Program-made: the position numbers and the translations under genes
Part shown: positions 1,060-43,228 of the stretch, one piece after another
How the letters are laid out: every line of letters begins with the position of its first letter
Position numbering within the stretch: the first letter of the stretch is position 1
DNA from: Escherichia phage vB_Eco_SLUR76
Length of the DNA: 60,165 nucleotides
Sequence record: LR025195.1
Strand: one strand, 5' to 3'
The notes under the pieces: model-generated
What the model was told of the DNA's origin: nothing
The model's input: only the letters and a program-made list of their open reading frames with translations
Databases searched by the model: none

Positions 1060-1356
1060 AGTTTATAGGGGTATACACCAAATTTTTTAGAATCATAGTA
1101 TAGGGAGTAGGGTATAGGTATTTGCCATTGTTATACCCTAGTACCCCTATCTTTAGTTTTTCTGCGGGGGCGCAAGGGGTAAACTAAAACTATAAATTTA
1201 GAAAGCTACATAGGGAGGGTATTTTATAGGGTGTTTATAGGGTTACCCTATACGAACCCTGTATTGCACCCTATACCTATTGTTTTACAATAACTCTTGC
1301 AATTTAATAGGGAGGGTCTTACCATAGGGTTAAGGCAATACCCTATCGGAGGCTAT
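1060..1356. repeat. AT-rich non-coding region with at least 12 copies of a TAGGG / CCCTA motif in both orientations (candidate origin or regulatory array)
   Basis: Repeated tataggg, atagggag, tagggt and their complements accctat, ccctatac, seen directly, with no plausible ORF. Confidence 0.6.
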
Positions 1357-2139
1357 ATGAATACAGAGCTGACTAACAATAACGCGGTGGCGGAGGAACA
1401 GCCAACCAGCACTCACTCCAATGTGGTTAAGGATTTGTGCTTCGCAGCCTGGGTCGTGCAAGCGTGTTCCCGTATTCGCGGAAAGGTGACTAAAGAGCAG
1501 GCTCTTAAGATGGTTGAGGATTATTTTGATAGTGCACAAGATGTGACGCCTAAAGTTAAACACGGAAAAGCTGCTGCAAAAAAAGAAAACCCTGAGCGTG
1601 ATAAGTTTATGGCATGGGTGCGCGAACAAATAAAGGAAAAAGAAAACCGTGAACTTACAACTAAAGAAGTTGCAAAGTTCCGCGGCAAGTTTGACTACTA
1701 CAAACGGTTTGGACCACAAGCGCCATATGAGAATGCTTTTAAGGTTTGCCAAACAAAGGATAAAAATAATGAGTCTGCGTTTAAAGTTTGGCTTGCCAAG
1801 AATGAGCGTGCGAAGGGTGAGCAGTTAACGGAAAAAGAAATCACATCTCTTAAAAATAGATGGTATTCGCGGCCGGATAAAAACGTGGAACCCTCAATTT
1901 GGGATAATCGTGGACGTTGGCCTGTTTGCAAGCTCAAGGCATATGGCAACGCCGCTACGGGCATAGAGGTTGCACTAGCTGGTGGAAACTTTTTTCCATG
2001 GCAAGCATTTCATGACATCACGAAGGCTCAGCAACGCCTTGGACAATTGGACGAATGGATGATAAATCTACGGGAAGGTCGCACTCCTGAAGAGGTATAT
2101 GAATGCGTTATGGAGTACGCAAACTTTGCCGCGCAATAA
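1357..2139 (+). CDS. Hypothetical protein
   Basis: Long ORF; ATG at 1357 preceded by RBS atcggagg. Confidence 0.6.
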   Translation: MNTELTNNNAVAEEQPTSTHSNVVKDLCFAAWVVQACSRIRGKVTKEQALKMVEDYFDSAQDVTPKVKHGKAAAKKENPERDKFMAWVREQIKEKENRELTTKEVAKFRGKFDYYKRFGPQAPYENAFKVCQTKDKNNESAFKVWLAKNERAKGEQLTEKEITSLKNRWYSRPDKNVEPSIWDNRGRWPVCKLKAYGNAATGIEVALAGGNFFPWQAFHDITKAQQRLGQLDEWMINLREGRTPEEVYECVMEYANFAAQ

Positions 2140-11991: not shown

Positions 11992-12878
11992 TGACTATGC
12001 CAACTAATTTCCACTTTGACGCGAGCAGCTATCAAGCACCTTCTTACGGCGCATTGCCGAAAGGTTGGTATAAAGCAGTAATTGAAGCATCTGAATTTAA
12101 ACCGACCAAAAATGGCGGTATGGCGATCCAGGTAACGTTTAGCATCATTGATGGTTTTGCTAAAGGTCGTAAAATCTTTGCTCGTTACAACGTTATCAAC
12201 GACAACGAAGATACTGTGCGTATTGCATACGAACAACTGGGCGCGCTTTCCCATGCGGTTGGCGTAATTCGCTGGGATACTCCTGCTCAACTGCATAACA
12301 TTCCGCTGAACCTGCGTCTGAAAGTTCGTTCTCAGGAAGGTTATGAAGACAGCAACGAGCCTAACGGTTATGCTAACATCAACGATCCGGTTAAGTATGC
12401 AGAAAAAGAAGCAGGTGCTCCAGCAATGGGTGCTCAAGCGGCAGTAGCTAACCCGTTCGGTGCAGGTGCGCCAGCACAGCAGCCAGCTTTCCCGGGCGCA
12501 GCACCTCAGCAACCAGCAGCTAACCCGTTTGCACAGCAACAGCAAGCGCCTGTACAGCAGCAAGCTCCGGTGCAGCAACAGCAGCCAGTTCAGCAGCCTG
12601 TGCAGCAGCAACCAGCACCACAGCAGGGCGCAGCAGCACAACCGTGGCAGAATGCCGCACCGCAGCCGTGGGATAATCCTGCTCAAAACGCAGCACCACA
12701 GCAGCCAGTGCAGCAAGCTCCGGTACAGCAGCCAGTAGCACCGGATGCAGCCCAGCAGCCGTGGGCGCAGCAGGTAGCACAGCCGGGTCAGGCAGCAGCG
12801 CCTCAGCAGCAAGCTCAGCCGCAGCAGCAAGCTGAACCGCATCCAGCACAAGCAGCAGTCCCGCCGTGGCAGCAGTAA
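11991..12878 (+). CDS. Putative ssDNA-binding protein (DUF669-like) with Q/P/A-rich low-complexity C-terminal tail
   Basis: Position next to the Sak4-like ATPase; C-terminal 150 aa are QQQAPVQQ repeats. Confidence 0.45.
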   Translation: MTMPTNFHFDASSYQAPSYGALPKGWYKAVIEASEFKPTKNGGMAIQVTFSIIDGFAKGRKIFARYNVINDNEDTVRIAYEQLGALSHAVGVIRWDTPAQLHNIPLNLRLKVRSQEGYEDSNEPNGYANINDPVKYAEKEAGAPAMGAQAAVANPFGAGAPAQQPAFPGAAPQQPAANPFAQQQQAPVQQQAPVQQQQPVQQPVQQQPAPQQGAAAQPWQNAAPQPWDNPAQNAAPQQPVQQAPVQQPVAPDAAQQPWAQQVAQPGQAAAPQQQAQPQQQAEPHPAQAAVPPWQQ

Positions 12879-16384: not shown

Positions 16385-16511
16385 TAAGTTCTAACCCTGA
16401 TCAAAAATATTTTTAAAAATGTTTATGTAAGGGGTTGCGTGTCACAAAATCCTTTGGTACATTTAACCCCGTTGGTAACAAACGAACCCATAATAATTCG
16501 GAGTGAAGAAA

Positions 16512-17315
16512 ATGAGTAATATTGAAGATAAGAAAGCCGCTGCTGCCGCAGCCGCTGCTGCCGCTGCAAAATCTGCTAAGACTGCAAAGAAAGAAGCTAC
16601 TGCTAACGACGCAGAAGCTAAAAAAGCCGCTGCCGCTGAAGCTGCACGCGTAGCAAAAGAGAAAAAAGAAGCAGAGAAAAAAGCTGCCGCTGAAAAGAAA
16701 CAAGCTGAAATTCGTATTGAAGCGGAAAATAAATTTACCGCTCTTTCCCAGGCAGTTGAAACCGTGAAGTTTGCTTTATCCGGTATTACCGATGAAAGCA
16801 CTGTTGAACAGATTACGGAAGCAGAATCTAAGGGTTCCGAACAGCTGAAGCATTTAAAGAATGCTCTGAAAGAGCTGAAAGCAGTTGTTAAAAAATCCAA
16901 AGGTGAAGATCTGTCCGGTGCAGTAACTGCTGCTCAGAGCATGGTCGACGAACTGGATTCGTCTATCAAAGGCTTCAAAGACAAGATCCGCGCTGCTAAA
17001 CAGGCTGAAAAGGCTGCTGAAAAAGCCCGCGAAAAAGCTGAACGTGAAAAAGCGAAAGAAGCGAACCGTATGCCTGAACAGAATGGTGTTCGTCGTCCGC
17101 AACCGGAAACTTCCTGCGGTCGTGCCTGGGCTCTGATGGATCAGATTAGCGCTACGCTGGGTCAGCCTGCTCCGATCTCTTATGTTCTGAATCTGGCTGG
17201 TCGCCACGGTCTGAACGAAGATACTGTTAAAACTCAGTATGCGCGTTGGAAGAAGTTTAATGGTGTGACTGGTCGCGTACCTATGCCAGTACCGGAAGCC
17301 CTGAACGGCTTGTAA
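16512..17315 (+). CDS. Lys/Ala/Glu-rich histone-H1-like protein with structured C-terminal domain
   Basis: RBS ggag; the N-terminal 170 aa are low-complexity KAAAEKK repeats. Confidence 0.55.
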   Translation: MSNIEDKKAAAAAAAAAAAKSAKTAKKEATANDAEAKKAAAAEAARVAKEKKEAEKKAAAEKKQAEIRIEAENKFTALSQAVETVKFALSGITDESTVEQITEAESKGSEQLKHLKNALKELKAVVKKSKGEDLSGAVTAAQSMVDELDSSIKGFKDKIRAAKQAEKAAEKAREKAEREKAKEANRMPEQNGVRRPQPETSCGRAWALMDQISATLGQPAPISYVLNLAGRHGLNEDTVKTQYARWKKFNGVTGRVPMPVPEALNGL

Positions 17316-37909: not shown

Positions 37910-40900
37910 TTACCCCATTGCAGTTCTACGAATTGTTCCTCGGGATGCAAAGTCATTGAGAACTTTATTATATCCCTGCTCAGCGCCATCACGGGCCGCT
38001 TTTTGCATGGCTTGTGTGAGTGCTGCATCGCCATTCCCTTGCACCGTGATATACTGAACAATGCTAACACCACCGGACATATTCACGCCACCTTGTTGTG
38101 AAGCTTGGCTATCCAGGAAGCGATTTAACTTGTCATTAGACGGAGCATTAAGTACACGTTCACCCTTATCCAGCAGCCATGTACCTTCACGCGGAACGTT
38201 ATCAATACCGTCGTGAGCCATACCAGCGATCGCTAAGCCACCCACAGTAGCAGCGGACGCATAACCCATAGTTTTCACTATAGCTGCCATTGTTGCACCC
38301 ATCGTAGCACCTCCTTGCTGTGTACCCCATGCAAGCGCCGCAGATGCTGCCGTTTCCGTGTTGGCAAGGATTGATGGGATTTGCATTGCTTTCTGTGCTG
38401 CAAACATAGCTTTATAAAAGAAGTTCTGCTGGCTTACAGCCTGTGACAGGCCATCCATTATAATGCTTAAGGATTCCTGAGAAAAAGATATCATTCGGTT
38501 CATAAGAACTTTATCCAGATTTTCTCTTTCCATACTTGCTTTCTTCAGGACTTGCGTCTTTGCATCTTCGTAGAGCTTATAATGCTCAAGATCATCCGCT
38601 TGTTGATCCCTGTGAAGCTTCATAATCTTTTCTTGCATCTCGTATTCAATTTGCGCGTAGTCTGTCATACCTTCATCTAACAGACCCTGAGCAAACTTAC
38701 GATTCTTCTTACGCTCGTCCAGTTTCTTTTGAGCTTCTTCTGCATCGTAAATTGCAGCAGCAAGACTAACAACTTCTGCTTTTTCCGCAGCCGTTGCGGA
38801 CGCATTTAACTTATTGAGTGCTACAGCTTGCGCTTTAGCTTTAGCGTTTTCCTTAACCCCTGTGGTTACTTCGTTAAGCTTGTTGCGTAAATCGTCAATA
38901 ACTTTGGCGTTCTGTTGATCCGCCTTAATAGCGTCTTCTGTAGCTTTGGTTCGATTTCTCTCCGCTTCTTCAAGATCATAATTCTTGCCGTAAGCTTCCG
39001 CTAGCTCTTGAGCATATTTAACAAGTTCTTTTGCGGACTCGCTTGTTGCTTCAGAGCTAACATCCTGCCCCATAGCTACTTTGCGAATTAGACTTCCGTA
39101 GGTGTCTGCATCTTTGCCCAGAGTTTGATACAGCCCACTAAGGATTGCAGCCTGGCGAGCATTACCAGCACCTTTAACCGTGTTAACGTCAATCTCACGG
39201 TTAACGTCACCTAACTGACCTTTAAAACGATCAAGCACTTTCTCGTCAATAAGCGGACCGGATTTGATATTAAGCACTGCTTTCATATCCGCTGCAAGCT
39301 GACGAGCTAACGGAATTATCTTCTCGATAGCAGGGCTTGTCATTTCTAAGACATTGTTGTAACGGCGTTGAGCTTCTTCAGCACGTTCAGCAGCAAGCTT
39401 GACGTTATCCGTAGCAATCTGTAAATTCTTCTCGGCACTAGCTGTATTACGACCGGACGCAGCGCGACGTTTTAATTGTGCTTCATAGAACTTCTGCGTT
39501 TCCGTTGCAGATTTAAGAGCAGTTTGCTCCCGCTTCATTTGCTCTTCAAGTTCGGGGAGAATTGCGCGAGCTTTAACTGCGTTAGCTGCCAACTGAGCTT
39601 CTGTCATCTGCATCAGTTTATCGCGTACAGTATCAACACTATCCGCAAACTGATTGTTTTCCGCACGACCAGCTTCCAACGATGCTTTATAGGAGTAAAT
39701 CGCACCCGCTGCCAGCATTGCTACACCAACAGGACCGCCAATTAACCCCATAGCACCGCGCAGCACGCTCATTGCTGTAGCTGCCCGGCTTGCGGCTGGT
39801 ACAGTTGCATTAAGTGCAGCATTGAGCGCTTGCCGCGCTTGTACGTCCGCCATAATTGCCGCAGAATGCGCACGGGTAGCGTTAATAAGCGCAAGACGTG
39901 CACCTGCTTCCGCTGCCGTACCTTTAGCAACCGCTAATGACCCGCGAGCAACCTGTAACGCTGCAAGCGAAGCAGCACGATCCGCAGCCGCTTTCTGTGC
40001 AGTAACGCCAATAGAGCTTTGCATCACCGCAGTAGTTGCCGCAGTCTGTGCAGCTTCCATCTGAGATGCTTTTGCAGCAGCTATAGACGCTTTAGTCTTA
40101 GCAAGCATCGCCGTAATGATACGCGCAGTAATCACTGTGGCTAAAGCTGAACCAACTGTTACAACCGTTCCTAAGTTTTCGGACAATGCGACAAACGTCT
40201 GTCCCAATGCAGCAACCGCACCTTGAGTCTTTTGGGATTCACCCATAAACTTAGTCAAGTTGTTTGTTGCAACCGTCCATTGCTGGTTGAACGTTGGCAT
40301 AGTGCGGCTAAATTCTTTATCAATTGTATCCGCAGCACCAGACAACGATTTGATAACCACATCAGCACTCAACTTGCCGCTGTAAGCCATTTCACGCAAT
40401 TGTCCAATGGTAACACCTAACGCATCGGACATGATTTGAGTTAAGCGGGGTGCTTGTTCTGCAACAGAGCGGAATTCATCCCCTCGCAGAACACCGGATG
40501 CCATCGCTTGCGAAAACTGAATAAGGGCAGCGCTTGCTTCATGTGACGTTGCACCGGAAACAATCATCGCTTTGTTAATTGTTTCAGTGATACGTCCAAG
40601 CTCCATACCCGTCATACCAGTATTCTTCATTGCATGCTGAAGACGGGAATATAGAGTTGCAGTTGCTTCCAAGCTTGTACGTGACCGCTGGGCAATATCA
40701 AACACGCGTTGCTGGGCATCCGCAACGGTTTCATTACCCGTACGAGCCAGTTCAAGCTTGTTGGTGAGGATAGTCCAGGAGTCCGATAGCGAAATAACAC
40801 GGTTAATGGTGTCGACGCTAACCAATCCTACAATTGCAGCATCTAAACGACTTGTGACAGTTGCAAGTTCGTTAGATGTGTTAGACAATGTCTTATAGCT

Positions 40901-41026
40901 GGATGTGACACGTTGAGCGGAACGCTCCGCTGTGTCACCTGTACGCGCAAGGTTACGCAGCATGGAGTCCGCTGTGCTAATCCCTTTCGCGTCAACCCTG
41001 ATTACTAGCGAAGCAGTTTCGGCCAT
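37910..41026 (-). CDS. Tail tape measure protein
   Basis: 1038 aa, Ala/Gln-rich helical protein immediately downstream of the G/GT chaperone pair. Confidence 0.85.
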   Translation of the reverse strand: MAETASLVIRVDAKGISTADSMLRNLARTGDTAERSAQRVTSSYKTLSNTSNELATVTSRLDAAIVGLVSVDTINRVISLSDSWTILTNKLELARTGNETVADAQQRVFDIAQRSRTSLEATATLYSRLQHAMKNTGMTGMELGRITETINKAMIVSGATSHEASAALIQFSQAMASGVLRGDEFRSVAEQAPRLTQIMSDALGVTIGQLREMAYSGKLSADVVIKSLSGAADTIDKEFSRTMPTFNQQWTVATNNLTKFMGESQKTQGAVAALGQTFVALSENLGTVVTVGSALATVITARIITAMLAKTKASIAAAKASQMEAAQTAATTAVMQSSIGVTAQKAAADRAASLAALQVARGSLAVAKGTAAEAGARLALINATRAHSAAIMADVQARQALNAALNATVPAASRAATAMSVLRGAMGLIGGPVGVAMLAAGAIYSYKASLEAGRAENNQFADSVDTVRDKLMQMTEAQLAANAVKARAILPELEEQMKREQTALKSATETQKFYEAQLKRRAASGRNTASAEKNLQIATDNVKLAAERAEEAQRRYNNVLEMTSPAIEKIIPLARQLAADMKAVLNIKSGPLIDEKVLDRFKGQLGDVNREIDVNTVKGAGNARQAAILSGLYQTLGKDADTYGSLIRKVAMGQDVSSEATSESAKELVKYAQELAEAYGKNYDLEEAERNRTKATEDAIKADQQNAKVIDDLRNKLNEVTTGVKENAKAKAQAVALNKLNASATAAEKAEVVSLAAAIYDAEEAQKKLDERKKNRKFAQGLLDEGMTDYAQIEYEMQEKIMKLHRDQQADDLEHYKLYEDAKTQVLKKASMERENLDKVLMNRMISFSQESLSIIMDGLSQAVSQQNFFYKAMFAAQKAMQIPSILANTETAASAALAWGTQQGGATMGATMAAIVKTMGYASAATVGGLAIAGMAHDGIDNVPREGTWLLDKGERVLNAPSNDKLNRFLDSQASQQGGVNMSGGVSIVQYITVQGNGDAALTQAMQKAARDGAEQGYNKVLNDFASRGTIRRTAMG

Positions 41027-41433
41027 TACCTTCTCCTTTTCCTTCTACCTTTATTCAGATTCTGCATTTGACTTTCCATGAGTTTAGCATTTTGTTCAGC
41101 TTCAGACACGCGCTTTTCAAGCCATAGCTGTCGCAGTATTTCGCATTCGTACGGTTGAAGATGTAAGCCCATTGTTACCTGATAGCTGTGCAATTCTGTA
41201 TAACTAAAATCCCCTCCAGTGTAAATGTCATCAAATAAAGTAGACAGGTATTCAAAGCAGATCGGTATTTCCTTTTCCCGATATTCTTTAAGCTTAGGTG
41301 GCGTCTTACCAGACTGTTCCTCAACCTTTTGCAGTTGCGATAATAAAGAAGATCCCCCGCCGGGGACTTTGCTATTTAGTTCCCATTGGAGGATCTTCTT
41401 ATCAATTAACTGTCTGCGCGCTTTTAGAAAAAA
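41026..41433 (-). CDS. Frameshift extension of the tail assembly chaperone (GT-like product = 41831..41427 joined by a -1 slip to ..41026)
   Basis: Slippery heptamer T_TTT_TTC (minus strand; + strand 41427..41433) two codons before the G stop; the -1 frame stays open for 133 codons and stops on TAA overlapping the tape measure ATG. Confidence 0.6.
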   Translation of the reverse strand, partial: FFLKARRQLIDKKILQWELNSKVPGGGSSLLSQLQKVEEQSGKTPPKLKEYREKEIPICFEYLSTLFDDIYTGGDFSYTELHSYQVTMGLHLQPYECEILRQLWLEKRVSEAEQNAKLMESQMQNLNKGRRKRRR

Positions 41434-41831
41434 TTACTATCTTTGGCGGCAAATACGTTAAGATCTTCTCGAACAGTTGGGTTCTCCGTTAAGAACTCAA
41501 ACACGTTGTCAACAGTCGGTGGCTCGTCAAAAGTCCAACCTGCTACAAGGTTACACAGTGAACGGGTAAGGATATCTTCCTTCATAGCATCCGTTACTTC
41601 ACCGTCTTTACCCTGCATAAGAGCCAACAGTTGACGCTGTGCTTTCAGTTCAGCATCACGGTACTCTGTGCAGTAGCGGCTACGAATGTAGAGTTTTTCG
41701 CCAGTGTCGCCTACACCAGGAATAACCACATTCATTGGCTTAGTGTTTGCCGGGTCGTTAGCCCGGCTCACAGTTTTAAAATCACGGAAGCTTTTAGCTA
41801 CTACAACTTTGGCTTTTTTGGTGTCGGTCAT
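41424..41831 (-). CDS. Tail assembly chaperone (lambda G-like)
   Basis: 135-aa ORF directly upstream of the tape measure gene with a slippery site at its 3' end. Confidence 0.7.
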   Translation of the reverse strand: MTDTKKAKVVVAKSFRDFKTVSRANDPANTKPMNVVIPGVGDTGEKLYIRSRYCTEYRDAELKAQRQLLALMQGKDGEVTDAMKEDILTRSLCNLVAGWTFDEPPTVDNVFEFLTENPTVREDLNVFAAKDSNFF

Positions 41832-41840
41832 TTCTTATCC

Positions 41841-42764
41841 TTAGGCTCCCGCTACAACGCGGGTAATTTTGATGGAACTTGCGGTTGTTGGGTCCAGCAA
41901 TCCGCGGTAGCCCATATTAAGCATGATATCCCCTTCGCCGTCAATAGGACGTGGAGCTTCAGTGAACTTCACGCGAGGGATTTCCACAGTGTATTTTTGT
42001 TCCGGATTGCTTGGGTCAATCAGATCAAACTTGATTGAAGTTTCCACTTCATCCAGATACTTCATACGCAGCTTGTTATCCAGGAAGTACACGTTAGCTG
42101 TACCAGTTACCGCACGACGACCAGCGGACGGTTCAATGGAGAACTTAGAACCAACAACAAAGCGTGGCGCAATATCGTTTTCAACGGTAAGACCGATTTC
42201 CGTAATAACGCTGATTTCTTCGTTGTTTTCCAGCAAGCGACCGGAGAAACCATCCATCGGTGACGTAGTTGTACGGTCTTTGATAGTTGCACCAGATGGA
42301 AGCGATTCCGCAATTTCCATCGAGCGCCCAACAATACCGAATTCCACTGTGGTCATGTTTTCCGCAGACAATGAGAAAGTCATGCTATTAACTTCGCAAC
42401 CGCGATAAATTGTATATTTACCTGACGGTAGATCTGCGTTATAGTCTACGAAAGTAAATGACTGACGGATAATACCGCCTTTAAGGACGTTGTCTTGCCA
42501 CTCCCCACGAAGTGCAGCAGCAATAAGATCATCGAAGGTGCCGAAGGACATTTCGCCCGTTACTGTACCTTCAACACTGCGAGCACCGAGGCGGAAGTCC
42601 GCAGTTTCAGCGTCATCGCGCAGTTCTTCAGATTCCAGCGTTGCAATATTAATGTCCAGACCGGAGCTGGTCACACGGAACGGAGTAAACTTCGCACTCG
42701 CTGGCGTAGTGTTGCTTACATCTTCTTTGACGTAGTAACACGAATAACGTGAACCTGTAGCCAT
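41841..42764 (-). CDS. Major tail (tube) protein
   Basis: 307 aa, immediately upstream of the chaperone-tape measure genes. Confidence 0.65.
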   Translation of the reverse strand: MATGSRYSCYYVKEDVSNTTPASAKFTPFRVTSSGLDINIATLESEELRDDAETADFRLGARSVEGTVTGEMSFGTFDDLIAAALRGEWQDNVLKGGIIRQSFTFVDYNADLPSGKYTIYRGCEVNSMTFSLSAENMTTVEFGIVGRSMEIAESLPSGATIKDRTTTSPMDGFSGRLLENNEEISVITEIGLTVENDIAPRFVVGSKFSIEPSAGRRAVTGTANVYFLDNKLRMKYLDEVETSIKFDLIDPSNPEQKYTVEIPRVKFTEAPRPIDGEGDIMLNMGYRGLLDPTTASSIKITRVVAGA

Positions 42765-42778
42765 ATTTAGATCCTCTC

Positions 42779-43228
42779 TTACCTCGGCTCACGAGCCGAC
42801 CAATAGATTGTGATAAAGTTAACGTCCCAGTTATCTTCAACCCCGCCTTTGGTAAAATCGTTCAGCGAAGTTTGTCCACCTTGCGAAAAGTCTAAACTGA
42901 CAATCCGTAACGTGTGGTCATCCGGGCACGGGATACGCAAGCCCAGTTTAAACTTTTTCCGAATAGAATCCAAGATTTGATTCTGCTTAGACGTTCCAGT
43001 GTTTAAAGGGCTATATACTGTGATTTGGTAGAAGCCTGGAATTTCATTCAGACCGTTATCACCTAGCGTTGCAGCGTAAGTGGAAGCGGGAGCATTGATT
43101 GCCTTTAACCACATCTGGTTGGCTTTAGGTGTCAACTTCTTATTCTTCCACGCTATACCAATCTCCGGTCCAACTGCTTCGCGTAGCATCTTATTAAATG
43201 CATCATTAATGAAATCGTATTCAAGCAT
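42779..43228 (-). CDS. Tail terminator / tail completion protein
   Basis: Position between the neck genes and the major tail gene. Confidence 0.45.
   Translation of the reverse strand: MLEYDFINDAFNKMLREAVGPEIGIAWKNKKLTPKANQMWLKAINAPASTYAATLGDNGLNEIPGFYQITVYSPLNTGTSKQNQILDSIRKKFKLGLRIPCPDDHTLRIVSLDFSQGGQTSLNDFTKGGVEDNWDVNFITIYWSAREPR

What the first reader, a model, noticed from the sequence alone, without database searches (positions are those of the whole stretch)
41026..41831. Programmed -1 ribosomal frameshift making a G/GT-type tail assembly chaperone pair
The 135-aa chaperone gene ends ...AAT TTT TTC TAA. The heptamer T_TTT_TTC (+ strand 41427..41433) is a canonical X_XXY_YYZ slippery site. 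After a -1 slip the frame stays open for 133 codons and ends at a TAA that overlaps the tape measure ATG (TAATG). This is the conserved lambda G/GT arrangement, read directly from the sequence.
Basis: seen in the sequence. Interest (0 to 1): 0.5.

Follow-up and report, generated by a model that had tools for sequence, protein, structure and literature searches.

The report
Tail chaperone G/GT frameshift site
This coliphage makes its two tail-assembly chaperones from one gene by letting a few ribosomes slip back one base on a run of T's, an ordinary, well-known phage trick that is already annotated in a near-identical relative.

Summary
The window is Escherichia phage vB_Eco_SLUR26 (Seuratvirus). 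On the minus strand a 135-aa gene (41831..41424) lies between the tail tube gene and the tape measure gene. It ends AAT TTT TTC TAA. The -1 frame is closed by TAG TAA immediately before T_TTT_TTC (41433..41427). It then stays open for 133 codons to a TAA overlapping the tape measure ATG.

The -1 ORF is real coding sequence:
- dN/dS is 0.03-0.11, including the 78 codons that precede any start codon.
- It carries Pfam Phage_TAC_18.
- PHROG 569 covers the fused 268-aa protein end to end.

Among the roughly 95 related loci examined, nearly all keep the G(0)/T(-1) layout. The slip motif turns over between T_TTT_TTC, A_AAA_AAG and A_AAT_TTT. That pattern points to selection for ribosomal slippage.

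The joined CDS with "ribosomal slippage" is already annotated in phage Seurat (98.5% identical protein) and in SA80RD. SLUR26's own record simply omits it.

One side observation goes beyond the finding. There is no stimulatory structure at the canonical 5-9 nt spacing. Instead the zero-frame stop abuts the heptamer, and a strong hairpin with conserved synonymous sites starts 22 nt downstream. Its role is unknown.

The parts
41841..42764 (-). Tail tube (major tail) protein gene, immediately upstream of G
   Evidence: Pfam PF18906 Phage_tube_2, E=2.5e-41. Relatives annotate it as tail tube or major tail protein.
41838..41842 (-). Shine-Dalgarno-like AAGGA, 6 nt upstream of the G start codon; it overlaps the tube gene stop
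   Evidence: Read from the sequence.
41424..41831 (-). G: zero-frame tail assembly chaperone ORF, 135 aa, including the TAA stop at 41426..41424
   Evidence: ORF list and translation. phrog_313 'Tail assembly chaperone' E=3.6e-11; phrog_569 E=7e-26. Pfam Phage_TAC_4 only below threshold. dN/dS 0.03-0.09.
41434..41439 (-). TAG TAA in the -1 frame, closing that frame immediately 5' of the heptamer
   Evidence: Translation of the -1 frame shows '**FFLKARR'. The overlap window is 10 nt.
41427..41433 (-). Slippery heptamer T_TTT_TTC, in X_XXY_YYZ phase of G
   Evidence: Sequence. Identical in-phase heptamer in 15/15 annotated relatives and most IMG/VR relatives. Replaced by A_AAA_AAG or A_AAT_TTT in others.
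41026..41427 (-). T: -1 frame extension of 133 codons plus TAA, read from the last base (C) of the heptamer. The GT product is 268 aa (41831..41427 joined to 41427..41029).
   Evidence: Translation. Pfam PF23812 Phage_TAC_18, 37.7 bits against a cut-off of 27. phrog_569 covers the fusion 1-268. dN/dS 0.03-0.11 in this frame, above 1 in the other two frames.
41341..41404 (-). Strong two-tier RNA hairpin inside T codons 8-29. Its first paired base is 23 nt after the heptamer (22-nt spacer). Role unknown.
   Evidence: dG about -28 kcal/mol. z=-3.99 against dinucleotide shuffles and z=-3.07 against synonymous-codon shuffles. It lies in the top 0.2% of 64-nt windows of the genome. Stem codons are invariant at synonymous sites.
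41033..41038 (-). Shine-Dalgarno AAGGAG for the tape measure gene, embedded in the codons of T's basic tail (GRRKRRR)
   Evidence: Sequence. An RBS is annotated at the same place in Seurat.
37910..41026 (-). Tape measure protein gene (1038 aa). Its ATG overlaps the T stop (TAATG).
   Evidence: Pfam PF20155 TMP_3, E=9e-60. phrog_339 E=4.5e-181.

Best explanation
This is a programmed -1 ribosomal frameshift of the lambda G/GT type.

Most ribosomes translate the 135-aa chaperone G and terminate at the UAA that directly follows U_UUU_UUC. A minority slip back one base on the heptamer: tRNA-Phe on UUU and UUC can both re-pair with UUU. Those ribosomes then read CUA AAA GCG... and produce a 268-aa fusion, GT. 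Its C-terminal T domain is a Phage_TAC_18 domain.

By analogy with lambda, many copies of G and few of GT coat the tape measure protein. The T domain recruits the tube protein to start tail polymerisation, and neither protein ends up in the virion.

Shown here: the geometry, coding selection in the -1 frame, family-wide conservation with motif turnover, and the domain identities.

Inferred, not shown:
- that the slip actually happens, and at what efficiency;
- whether both tRNAs slip together, or the P-site tRNA slips while the adjacent stop codon waits in the A site;
- the roles of the proteins in assembly.

The adjacent slow-to-decode stop codon is the likeliest local stimulator.
For: 1. Geometry. 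The -1 frame opens at the heptamer and the zero frame closes right after it, so only a 10-nt shift window exists.

2. Synteny. Terminator PF13554, tube PF18906, G, T, tape measure PF20155 (the same order in metagenomic relatives).

3. No independent start. The first ATG/GTG/TTG in the T frame is at codon 79. Codons 1-78 still show dS 0.08-0.44 against dN 0-0.03. The Pfam domain begins at T residue 37.

4. Continuity. The fused GT aligns across the junction in 15 phages of 39-63% locus G+C, and phrog_569 spans the fusion.

5. Conservation with turnover.
- In-phase TTTTTTC is present in 15/15 annotated relatives and most of 71 IMG/VR loci.
- Eight loci keep the FF/FY residues with non-slippery codons and carry A_AAA_AAG two codons downstream.
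- A divergent clade uses A_AAT_TTT.

6. Motif competence. U_UU.U_UU.C gives more than 0.1% frameshifting in E. coli without any stimulator, and H_HH.U_UU.Y is among the most efficient classes (PMC4066793).

7. Synonymous sites are frozen at the junction codons N-F-F-L-.-A-R.

8. Independent annotators reached the same join in Seurat and SA80RD.
Against: - There is no direct evidence (peptide, reporter or ribosome profile) for this phage or any Queuovirinae member in the papers searched.
- No stimulatory structure lies at the canonical distance. The first 61 nt downstream fold no better than shuffles (-3.7 kcal/mol, z=+1.18).
- No Shine-Dalgarno-like element is visible upstream of the heptamer.
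- An extra U inserted by RNA polymerase in the T6 run would give exactly the same protein.
- The G domain reaches no Pfam chaperone family above threshold.
- Its AlphaFold model was unusable (pLDDT 45).
Confidence: 0.9

Rival explanations
1. Transcriptional slippage. RNA polymerase adds one extra U in the T6 run, producing a minority mRNA in which G and T are in one frame. Ribosomes then read it normally and make the same ...SNFFLKARR... protein.
For: The site is a homopolymer run: T6 here and T7 in Nonagvirus. The product would be indistinguishable from the frameshift product. Homopolymer heptamers are noted as prone to transcriptional slippage (PMC4066793; PMC5009743).
Against: - A run of 6 is short for efficient slippage by E. 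coli RNA polymerase, by my own knowledge of the Baranov/Penno work, which was not re-read here.
- The divergent clade uses A_AAT_TTT, C_AAT_TTT or G_GTT_TTT. These have no long homopolymer but do allow tRNA re-pairing.
- Every motif found is in the exact codon phase that tandem tRNA slippage needs, which polymerase slippage would not require. Shared ancestry of the site weakens this last point.
Confidence: 0.05
2. T is a separate small gene translated from an internal start, either TTG at T codon 79 or ATG at codon 86. Several GenBank records annotate it this way. No frameshift is involved.
For: KurtStettler and CSP1C annotate a 48-aa ORF, and Skure a 70-aa TTG-started ORF. A weak AGG lies about 5 nt before the ATG at codon 86 (sequence). 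Nonagvirus and Vid5 records annotate an ORF starting 17 codons after the slip site.
Against: - The 78 codons upstream of any start are under purifying selection.
- They contain invariant residues G158, P178 and P190 of the family alignment.
- The Phage_TAC_18 domain begins at T residue 37.
- Candidate start positions are not conserved between lineages, falling at codons 11, 17, 20, 28, 33, 57, 64 and 79.
- Homology runs up to the heptamer in all lineages.
Confidence: 0.03
3. Chance or artefact. The open -1 frame is a sequencing indel that splits a single gene, or an accidental open frame.
For: None beyond the fact that homopolymer runs are error-prone in sequencing.
Against: The same two-frame layout appears in 34 independently sequenced close relatives and in roughly 95 examined loci from isolates and metagenomes. 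In 7 of those 9 Seuratvirus-like sequences the -1 frame is closed by TAG TAA just before the site (yong3 and L093 keep only the TAA). The chance probabilities are about 0.003 and 0.001.
Confidence: 0.01

Closest known systems
Phage Seurat 'tape measure chaperone' pair (KM236243.1, CPT_Seurat13/14) and SA80RD_14/15 (OL960575.1)
   Same: The locus is orthologous: 94.6% nucleotide and 98.5% protein identity for Seurat. It has the identical heptamer, stop and T ORF.
   Different: Nothing of substance. SLUR26's own record (LR025198.1) leaves the T ORF unannotated and calls G 'hypothetical protein'. The Seurat genome announcement names the chaperone but does not discuss the frameshift.
Phage lambda gpG/gpGT (Levin 1993; Xu 2004, 2013, 2014, as summarised in PMC5009743)
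   Same: - Both lie between the major tail gene and the tape measure gene.
- The sizes are similar: G 135 against 140 aa, GT 268 against 279 aa.
- In both, the -1 shift is near the end of G and the T ORF abuts the tape measure start.
- The presumed function of setting a high G:GT ratio is the same.
   Different: - There is no detectable sequence homology (hhalign probability 1.7%).
- Lambda uses G_GGA_AAG, with the G stop 15 nt after the heptamer and a 64-nt overlap.
- SLUR26 uses T_TTT_TTC with the stop immediately adjacent and a 10-nt overlap.
E. coli dnaX and IS3/IS911-type -1 frameshift cassettes (PMC4066793, PMC5009743)
   Same: All use a heptamer of the X_XXY_YYZ class decoded by E. coli ribosomes. 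U_UU.U_UU.C is used by some IS elements.
   Different: Those cassettes have a hairpin or pseudoknot a few nucleotides downstream and often an upstream Shine-Dalgarno-like element. Here neither is present at that spacing. The only strong structure starts 22 nt downstream.

Membership tests
Lambda-type G/GT tail assembly chaperone frameshift arrangement (Xu et al. 2004) | Located between the major tail (tube) gene and the tape measure gene | tested here: met
   PF18906 tube upstream, PF20155 TMP_3 downstream, PF13554 terminator before the tube gene.
Lambda-type G/GT tail assembly chaperone frameshift arrangement (Xu et al. 2004) | Two overlapping ORFs, with the second in another frame and lacking its own start at its 5' end | tested here: met
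   The -1 frame is open from the heptamer for 133 codons. The first ATG/GTG/TTG is at codon 79.
Lambda-type G/GT tail assembly chaperone frameshift arrangement (Xu et al. 2004) | Slippery sequence in the correct phase inside the overlap | tested here: met
   T_TTT_TTC fills the 10-nt overlap. The motif is frameshift-prone in E. coli (PMC4066793).
Lambda-type G/GT tail assembly chaperone frameshift arrangement (Xu et al. 2004) | Arrangement and slip site conserved among diverged relatives | tested here: met
   15/15 annotated phages and most of 71 IMG/VR loci keep it. The motif swaps to A_AAA_AAG or A_AAT_TTT in some.
Lambda-type G/GT tail assembly chaperone frameshift arrangement (Xu et al. 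2004) | Both G and GT are made, at a fixed high G:GT ratio (about 30:1 in lambda) | not testable with these tools
   This needs a reporter assay, immunoblot or mass spectrometry. No such data were found for Seuratvirus.
Lambda-type G/GT tail assembly chaperone frameshift arrangement (Xu et al. 2004) | G part binds the tape measure protein, T part binds the tube protein; both are needed for assembly and absent from virions | not testable with these tools
   Biochemical and genetic property; inferred by analogy only.
Sequence homology to lambda gpG/gpGT | Detectable profile similarity to the lambda GT protein | tested here: not met
   hhalign of the 10-sequence GT profile against lambda GT gives probability 1.7%.
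Pfam PF23812 Phage_TAC_18 | Score above the gathering cut-off (27 bits) | tested here: met
   The T part scores 37.7 bits, E=2.3e-9. 10/10 family members match, best E=6.6e-22.
Pfam PF08748 Phage_TAC_4 (G part) | Score above the gathering cut-off (21.1 bits) | tested here: not met
   14.3 bits, E=0.048. 3/10 relatives reach E<=0.01. PHROG 313 'Tail assembly chaperone' does match at E=3.6e-11.
Tail assembly chaperone fold | Predicted structure of G resembles solved chaperone structures | tested here: inconclusive
   AlphaFold2 with an 8-sequence alignment gave mean pLDDT 45 and pTM 0.31, so no fold search was run. A profile search of PDB sequences found nothing relevant.
Canonical bacterial -1 PRF cassette (heptamer plus stimulator) | Stable hairpin or pseudoknot starting about 5-9 nt after the heptamer, or a Shine-Dalgarno-like element upstream | tested here: not met
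   The first 61 nt downstream give -3.7 kcal/mol, z=+1.18. The best closed hairpin starting within +12 is -7.4 kcal/mol. No GGAG/AGGA occurs in the 30 nt upstream. The strong hairpin starts at +23.

The most novel reading that the evidence does not exclude
In Seuratvirus and its Queuovirinae relatives the frameshift signal may be a non-canonical composite. The heptamer is abutted by the zero-frame stop codon, and a strong hairpin frozen at synonymous sites lies 19-32 nt downstream. In this reading the distal hairpin helps set the G:GT ratio. Possible routes are stalling already-shifted ribosomes so that followers queue near the heptamer, or toggling with the small terminator-like fold at 41352..41367. 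The alternative is that it is merely a stability or anti-polarity element in a poorly translated stretch.
Probability: 0.2. Interest if true: 0.4.

Novelty: already known. Interest (0 to 1): 0.15.

Why it matters
Practically, it corrects the annotation. SLUR26's record, and most records of this phage group, either omit the T ORF or annotate truncated 48-115-aa fragments of it. RefSeq labels G as 'tail length tape measure protein'. The true product is a 268-aa GT fusion.

Biologically, it adds nothing new to the G/GT paradigm. It does show that the Phage_TAC_18 chaperone family keeps the frameshift across very different hosts and G+C contents while exchanging slippery motifs. That makes the family a clean comparative data set for how frameshift sites evolve.

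The distal conserved hairpin is a small open question.

Tried and rejected
1. Fold test for G. AlphaFold2 on G with the only 8 homologues the word-indexed search returned gave pLDDT 45. I therefore ran no fold search, because a low-confidence model gives meaningless matches.

2. A profile search of PDB sequences with the GT alignment returned only chance hits: a designed repeat protein and DNMT3.

3. NCBIfam has no model for these proteins.

4. Rfam search of 41000..41900 gave only sub-threshold noise, mir-1002 and RAGATH-25, far below their gathering scores. There is no known frameshift element here.

5. Classical covariation for the hairpin was not possible.
- Within Seuratvirus-like sequences the stem is invariant.
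- In other genera the hairpin is built from different codons, offset by 1-2 codons, so paired columns are not homologous (by inspection).
- I used synonymous-codon shuffles and synonymous-site invariance instead.

6. Intrinsic-terminator reading of the GC hairpin plus U-rich tail at 41352..41367. The U-tract is not conserved in Nonagvirus, K9PH25C2 or Vid5, so I do not favour it.

7. I searched the Seurat, Seuratvirus comparative and Vid5 papers for any discussion or proteomic evidence of the frameshift and found none.

8. I did not control the frequency of proximal hairpins in the Pseudomonas/Xanthomonas clades against random positions. That pattern is descriptive only.

Full report
**Identity of the window.** Megablast of the region gives a 100% match to Escherichia phage vB_Eco_SLUR26 (LR025198.1, Seuratvirus, Queuovirinae). 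That record is 60,165 bp, the same length as the window. Its coordinates are the window's plus 2. Thirty-three further records are 77-99% identical in nucleotides (all but two at 90% or more). All genes discussed here are on the minus strand.

**Checking the observation.**
- The 135-aa ORF runs 41831..41424 and ends AAT TTT TTC TAA.
- T_TTT_TTC sits at 41433..41427 in X_XXY_YYZ phase.
- In the -1 frame the two codons just before it are TAG TAA (41439..41434). The -1 frame therefore opens exactly at the heptamer, and the zero frame closes right after it.
- Any shift must happen inside a 10-nt window.
- From the heptamer's last base the -1 frame reads LKARRQLIDKK... for 133 codons to TAA 41028..41026. 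That stop shares its last A with the tape measure ATG (TAATG).

The chance estimates are as follows.
- In-phase heptamers occur at 0.35% per codon in this genome.
- A 133-codon stop-free run has probability about 0.001.
- Among the 70 in-phase heptamers in long ORFs of the window, this is the only one followed by a long -1 extension beyond the stop.

**Context.** The gene order on the minus strand is:
- tail terminator (42779..43228, PF13554);
- tail tube (41841..42764, PF18906);
- G;
- T in the -1 frame;
- tape measure (37910..41026, PF20155).

This is the order of lambda U-V-G-T-H. G has its own AAGGA ribosome binding site. The tape measure gene has an AAGGAG embedded in the codons for T's basic tail.

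**Is T real coding sequence, and is it reached by a shift?**
- The T part matches Pfam Phage_TAC_18 above threshold (37.7 bits against 27). PHROG 569 aligns to the fused protein from residue 1 to 268.
- All ten diverse family members match PF23812 in the T part.
- Against Seurat, KurtStettler and Skure, dN/dS in the -1 frame is 0.03-0.11. In the other two frames it ranges from 0.6 to 3.6 (above 1 in four of the five computable comparisons).
- The first possible start codon in the T frame is TTG at codon 79. Codons 1-78 show the same purifying selection, for example 16.5 synonymous against 5.5 non-synonymous differences to Skure. The Pfam domain starts at T residue 37.

Independent initiation therefore cannot explain the ORF.

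**Comparative evidence.** tblastn of the fused protein finds 118 phage records, usually as two pieces in different frames.

I examined 15 loci in detail. They cover Seuratvirus, Nonagvirus, Vidquintavirus, Craquatrovirus, two unclassified Klebsiella phages, Pseudomonas phages PaMx11, ZQG1 and PSA28, and a Xanthomonas phage. Protein identity falls to about 25% and locus G+C ranges from 39 to 63%.
- In all 15, T is in the -1 frame.
- In all 15, an in-phase TTTTTTC lies in the overlap.
- In all 15, the fused proteins align without a break across the junction.

A scan of IMG/VR returned 71 further loci.
- Most carry in-phase TTTTTTC.
- Eight carry A_AAA_AAG two codons downstream, while keeping the FF/FY residues with non-slippery codons.
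- A divergent clade carries A_AAT_TTT or the degenerate C_AAT_TTT / G_GTT_TTT, in which only the A-site tRNA can re-pair.

Exchange of one canonical slippery motif for another, and movement of the site, are what selection for frameshifting predicts. Conservation of two phenylalanines alone would not produce this pattern. The A_AAT_TTT variants also argue against RNA polymerase slippage, since they lack a long homopolymer.

**Competence of the motif.** In the systematic E. coli study of Sharma et al. (PMC4066793):
- UUN A-site codons are among the most shift-prone;
- homogeneous pyrimidine motifs are favoured;
- U_UU.U_UU.C gives more than 0.1% shifting without any stimulator;
- it belongs to the H_HH.U_UU.Y class listed among the most efficient;
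- it is used by some IS elements.

E. coli has a single tRNA-Phe that reads both UUU and UUC, so both tRNAs re-pair fully after the slip. This last point rests on my own knowledge.

**Stimulators.** No Shine-Dalgarno-like sequence lies upstream. The first 61 nt downstream are unstructured (-3.7 kcal/mol, z=+1.18).

The zero-frame UAA directly abuts the heptamer in Seuratvirus, Nonagvirus and K9PH25C2, and is one codon away in Vid5. A slow-to-decode codon next to a slippery site is a known promoter of shifting ('shifty stops', Weiss 1987, cited in PMC5009743). I take the stop codon as the likeliest local stimulator. This is an inference.

A strong two-tier hairpin occupies 41404..41341, starting 23 nt after the heptamer.
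- Its free energy is about -28 kcal/mol.
- The 117-nt downstream segment containing it gives z=-3.99 against dinucleotide shuffles; the first 102 nt of T give z=-3.07, with 0 of 300 synonymous-codon shuffles as stable.
- It is in the top 0.2% of 64-nt windows of the genome.

Nine Seuratvirus-like sequences, with G identity of 56-99%, were compared. These include five metagenomic contigs.
- The stem arms and the junction are invariant at synonymous sites: 16 of 26 amino-acid-invariant codons, against 9 of 89 elsewhere (Fisher p=3e-7).
- The loop and the spacer do vary.

Nonagvirus, K9PH25C2 and Vid5 have equally strong hairpins made from different sequence at +19 to +32. Several Pseudomonas and Xanthomonas relatives, whose zero-frame stop is 11-31 codons away, instead have hairpins at +5 to +8. 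That last comparison is uncontrolled.

A spacer of 22 nt is well beyond the 7-9 nt optimum reported for stem-loop stimulators (PMC3458567). A direct stimulatory role for the hairpin is therefore doubtful and its function is open.

**Comparison with what is known.** The join is already in GenBank for phage Seurat (CPT_Seurat13/14, 'ribosomal slippage (10236)') and for SA80RD. The Seurat GT protein is 98.5% identical to SLUR26's.

Other records treat the locus differently.
- SLUR26's own record leaves 41028..41426 empty.
- KurtStettler, CSP1C and Skure annotate 48-70-aa fragments.
- 9g, yong3 and Vid5 annotate a separate ORF.

The relevant papers do not discuss the frameshift.

Relative to lambda, the sizes and layout match: G 140 aa, GT 279 aa, -1 at G_GGA_AAG. 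There is no detectable sequence homology. This agrees with the view of Xu et al. 2004 that the arrangement is conserved while the sequences are not.

**Verdict.** It is already known for this phage genus. Its value is mainly as an annotation fix. The only unexplained element is the conserved distal hairpin.

Noticed in passing
window 41341..41404 (minus strand): A very stable hairpin inside the T ORF, 22 nt past the slip site. Its stem codons (K K I L Q / G G S S L) are invariant at synonymous sites across 9 Seuratvirus-like sequences, while the loop varies. Other Queuovirinae genera have different-sequence hairpins at about the same place.
   Followed up: yes
window 41352..41367 (minus strand): An alternative small GC hairpin (GUCCCC-GGCG-GGGGAU) followed by the U-rich CUUCUUUAUU matches a terminator-like pattern and competes with the large hairpin. 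The U-tract is not conserved in other genera.
   Followed up: partly
whole window against LR025198.1: Window coordinates are the GenBank record's coordinates minus 2 although both are 60,165 nt long, which suggests that the window's start point differs from the deposited record's by two bases.
   Followed up: no
window 41029..41050 (minus strand): The purine-rich codons of T's polybasic C-terminus (GRRKRRR: GGT AGA AGG AAA AGG AGA AGG) double as the Shine-Dalgarno region of the tape measure gene. The T stop overlaps the tape measure ATG, so tape measure translation could be partly coupled to GT translation.
   Followed up: no
related records (L003, L004, L006, L087; RefSeq NC_028831, NC_028776, NC_024146): Annotation of this locus is inconsistent. 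Truncated 48-70-aa 'tape measure chaperone' ORFs are annotated, one of them (Skure) with a TTG start. Some records carry separate T ORFs. RefSeq names G 'tail length tape measure protein'. PHROG 569, the chaperone family, carries the same misleading name.
   Followed up: partly
L009 (Escherichia phage HdK1, MK373794.1) about 1270..1364: HdK1's T ORF diverges from the otherwise near-identical 9g sequence over its last 35 or so residues. Its tape measure gene is annotated as a short 'tape measure domain protein'. This looks like an indel or assembly error near the T/TMP boundary.
   Followed up: no
window 12540..12860: A long CTG/CAG-rich low-complexity stretch gives the most stable 64-nt folds in the genome (down to -32.6 kcal/mol on the minus strand). 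It is presumably a repetitive coding region. No tRNA genes are present anywhere in the window.
   Followed up: no
window 16463..16900 (minus strand): An ORF of more than 100 aa with four T-rich in-phase heptamers (TTTTTTC twice, TTTTTTA, AAATTTA) and a long open -1 frame. It is probably a shadow ORF opposite a plus-strand gene.
   Followed up: no
L049 (IMGVR_UViG_3300026160_000059): This is the one relative for which my automated G/T overlap detection failed, because the T frame is open for about 275 codons in a GC-rich contig. I did not resolve whether it has a different arrangement.
   Followed up: no
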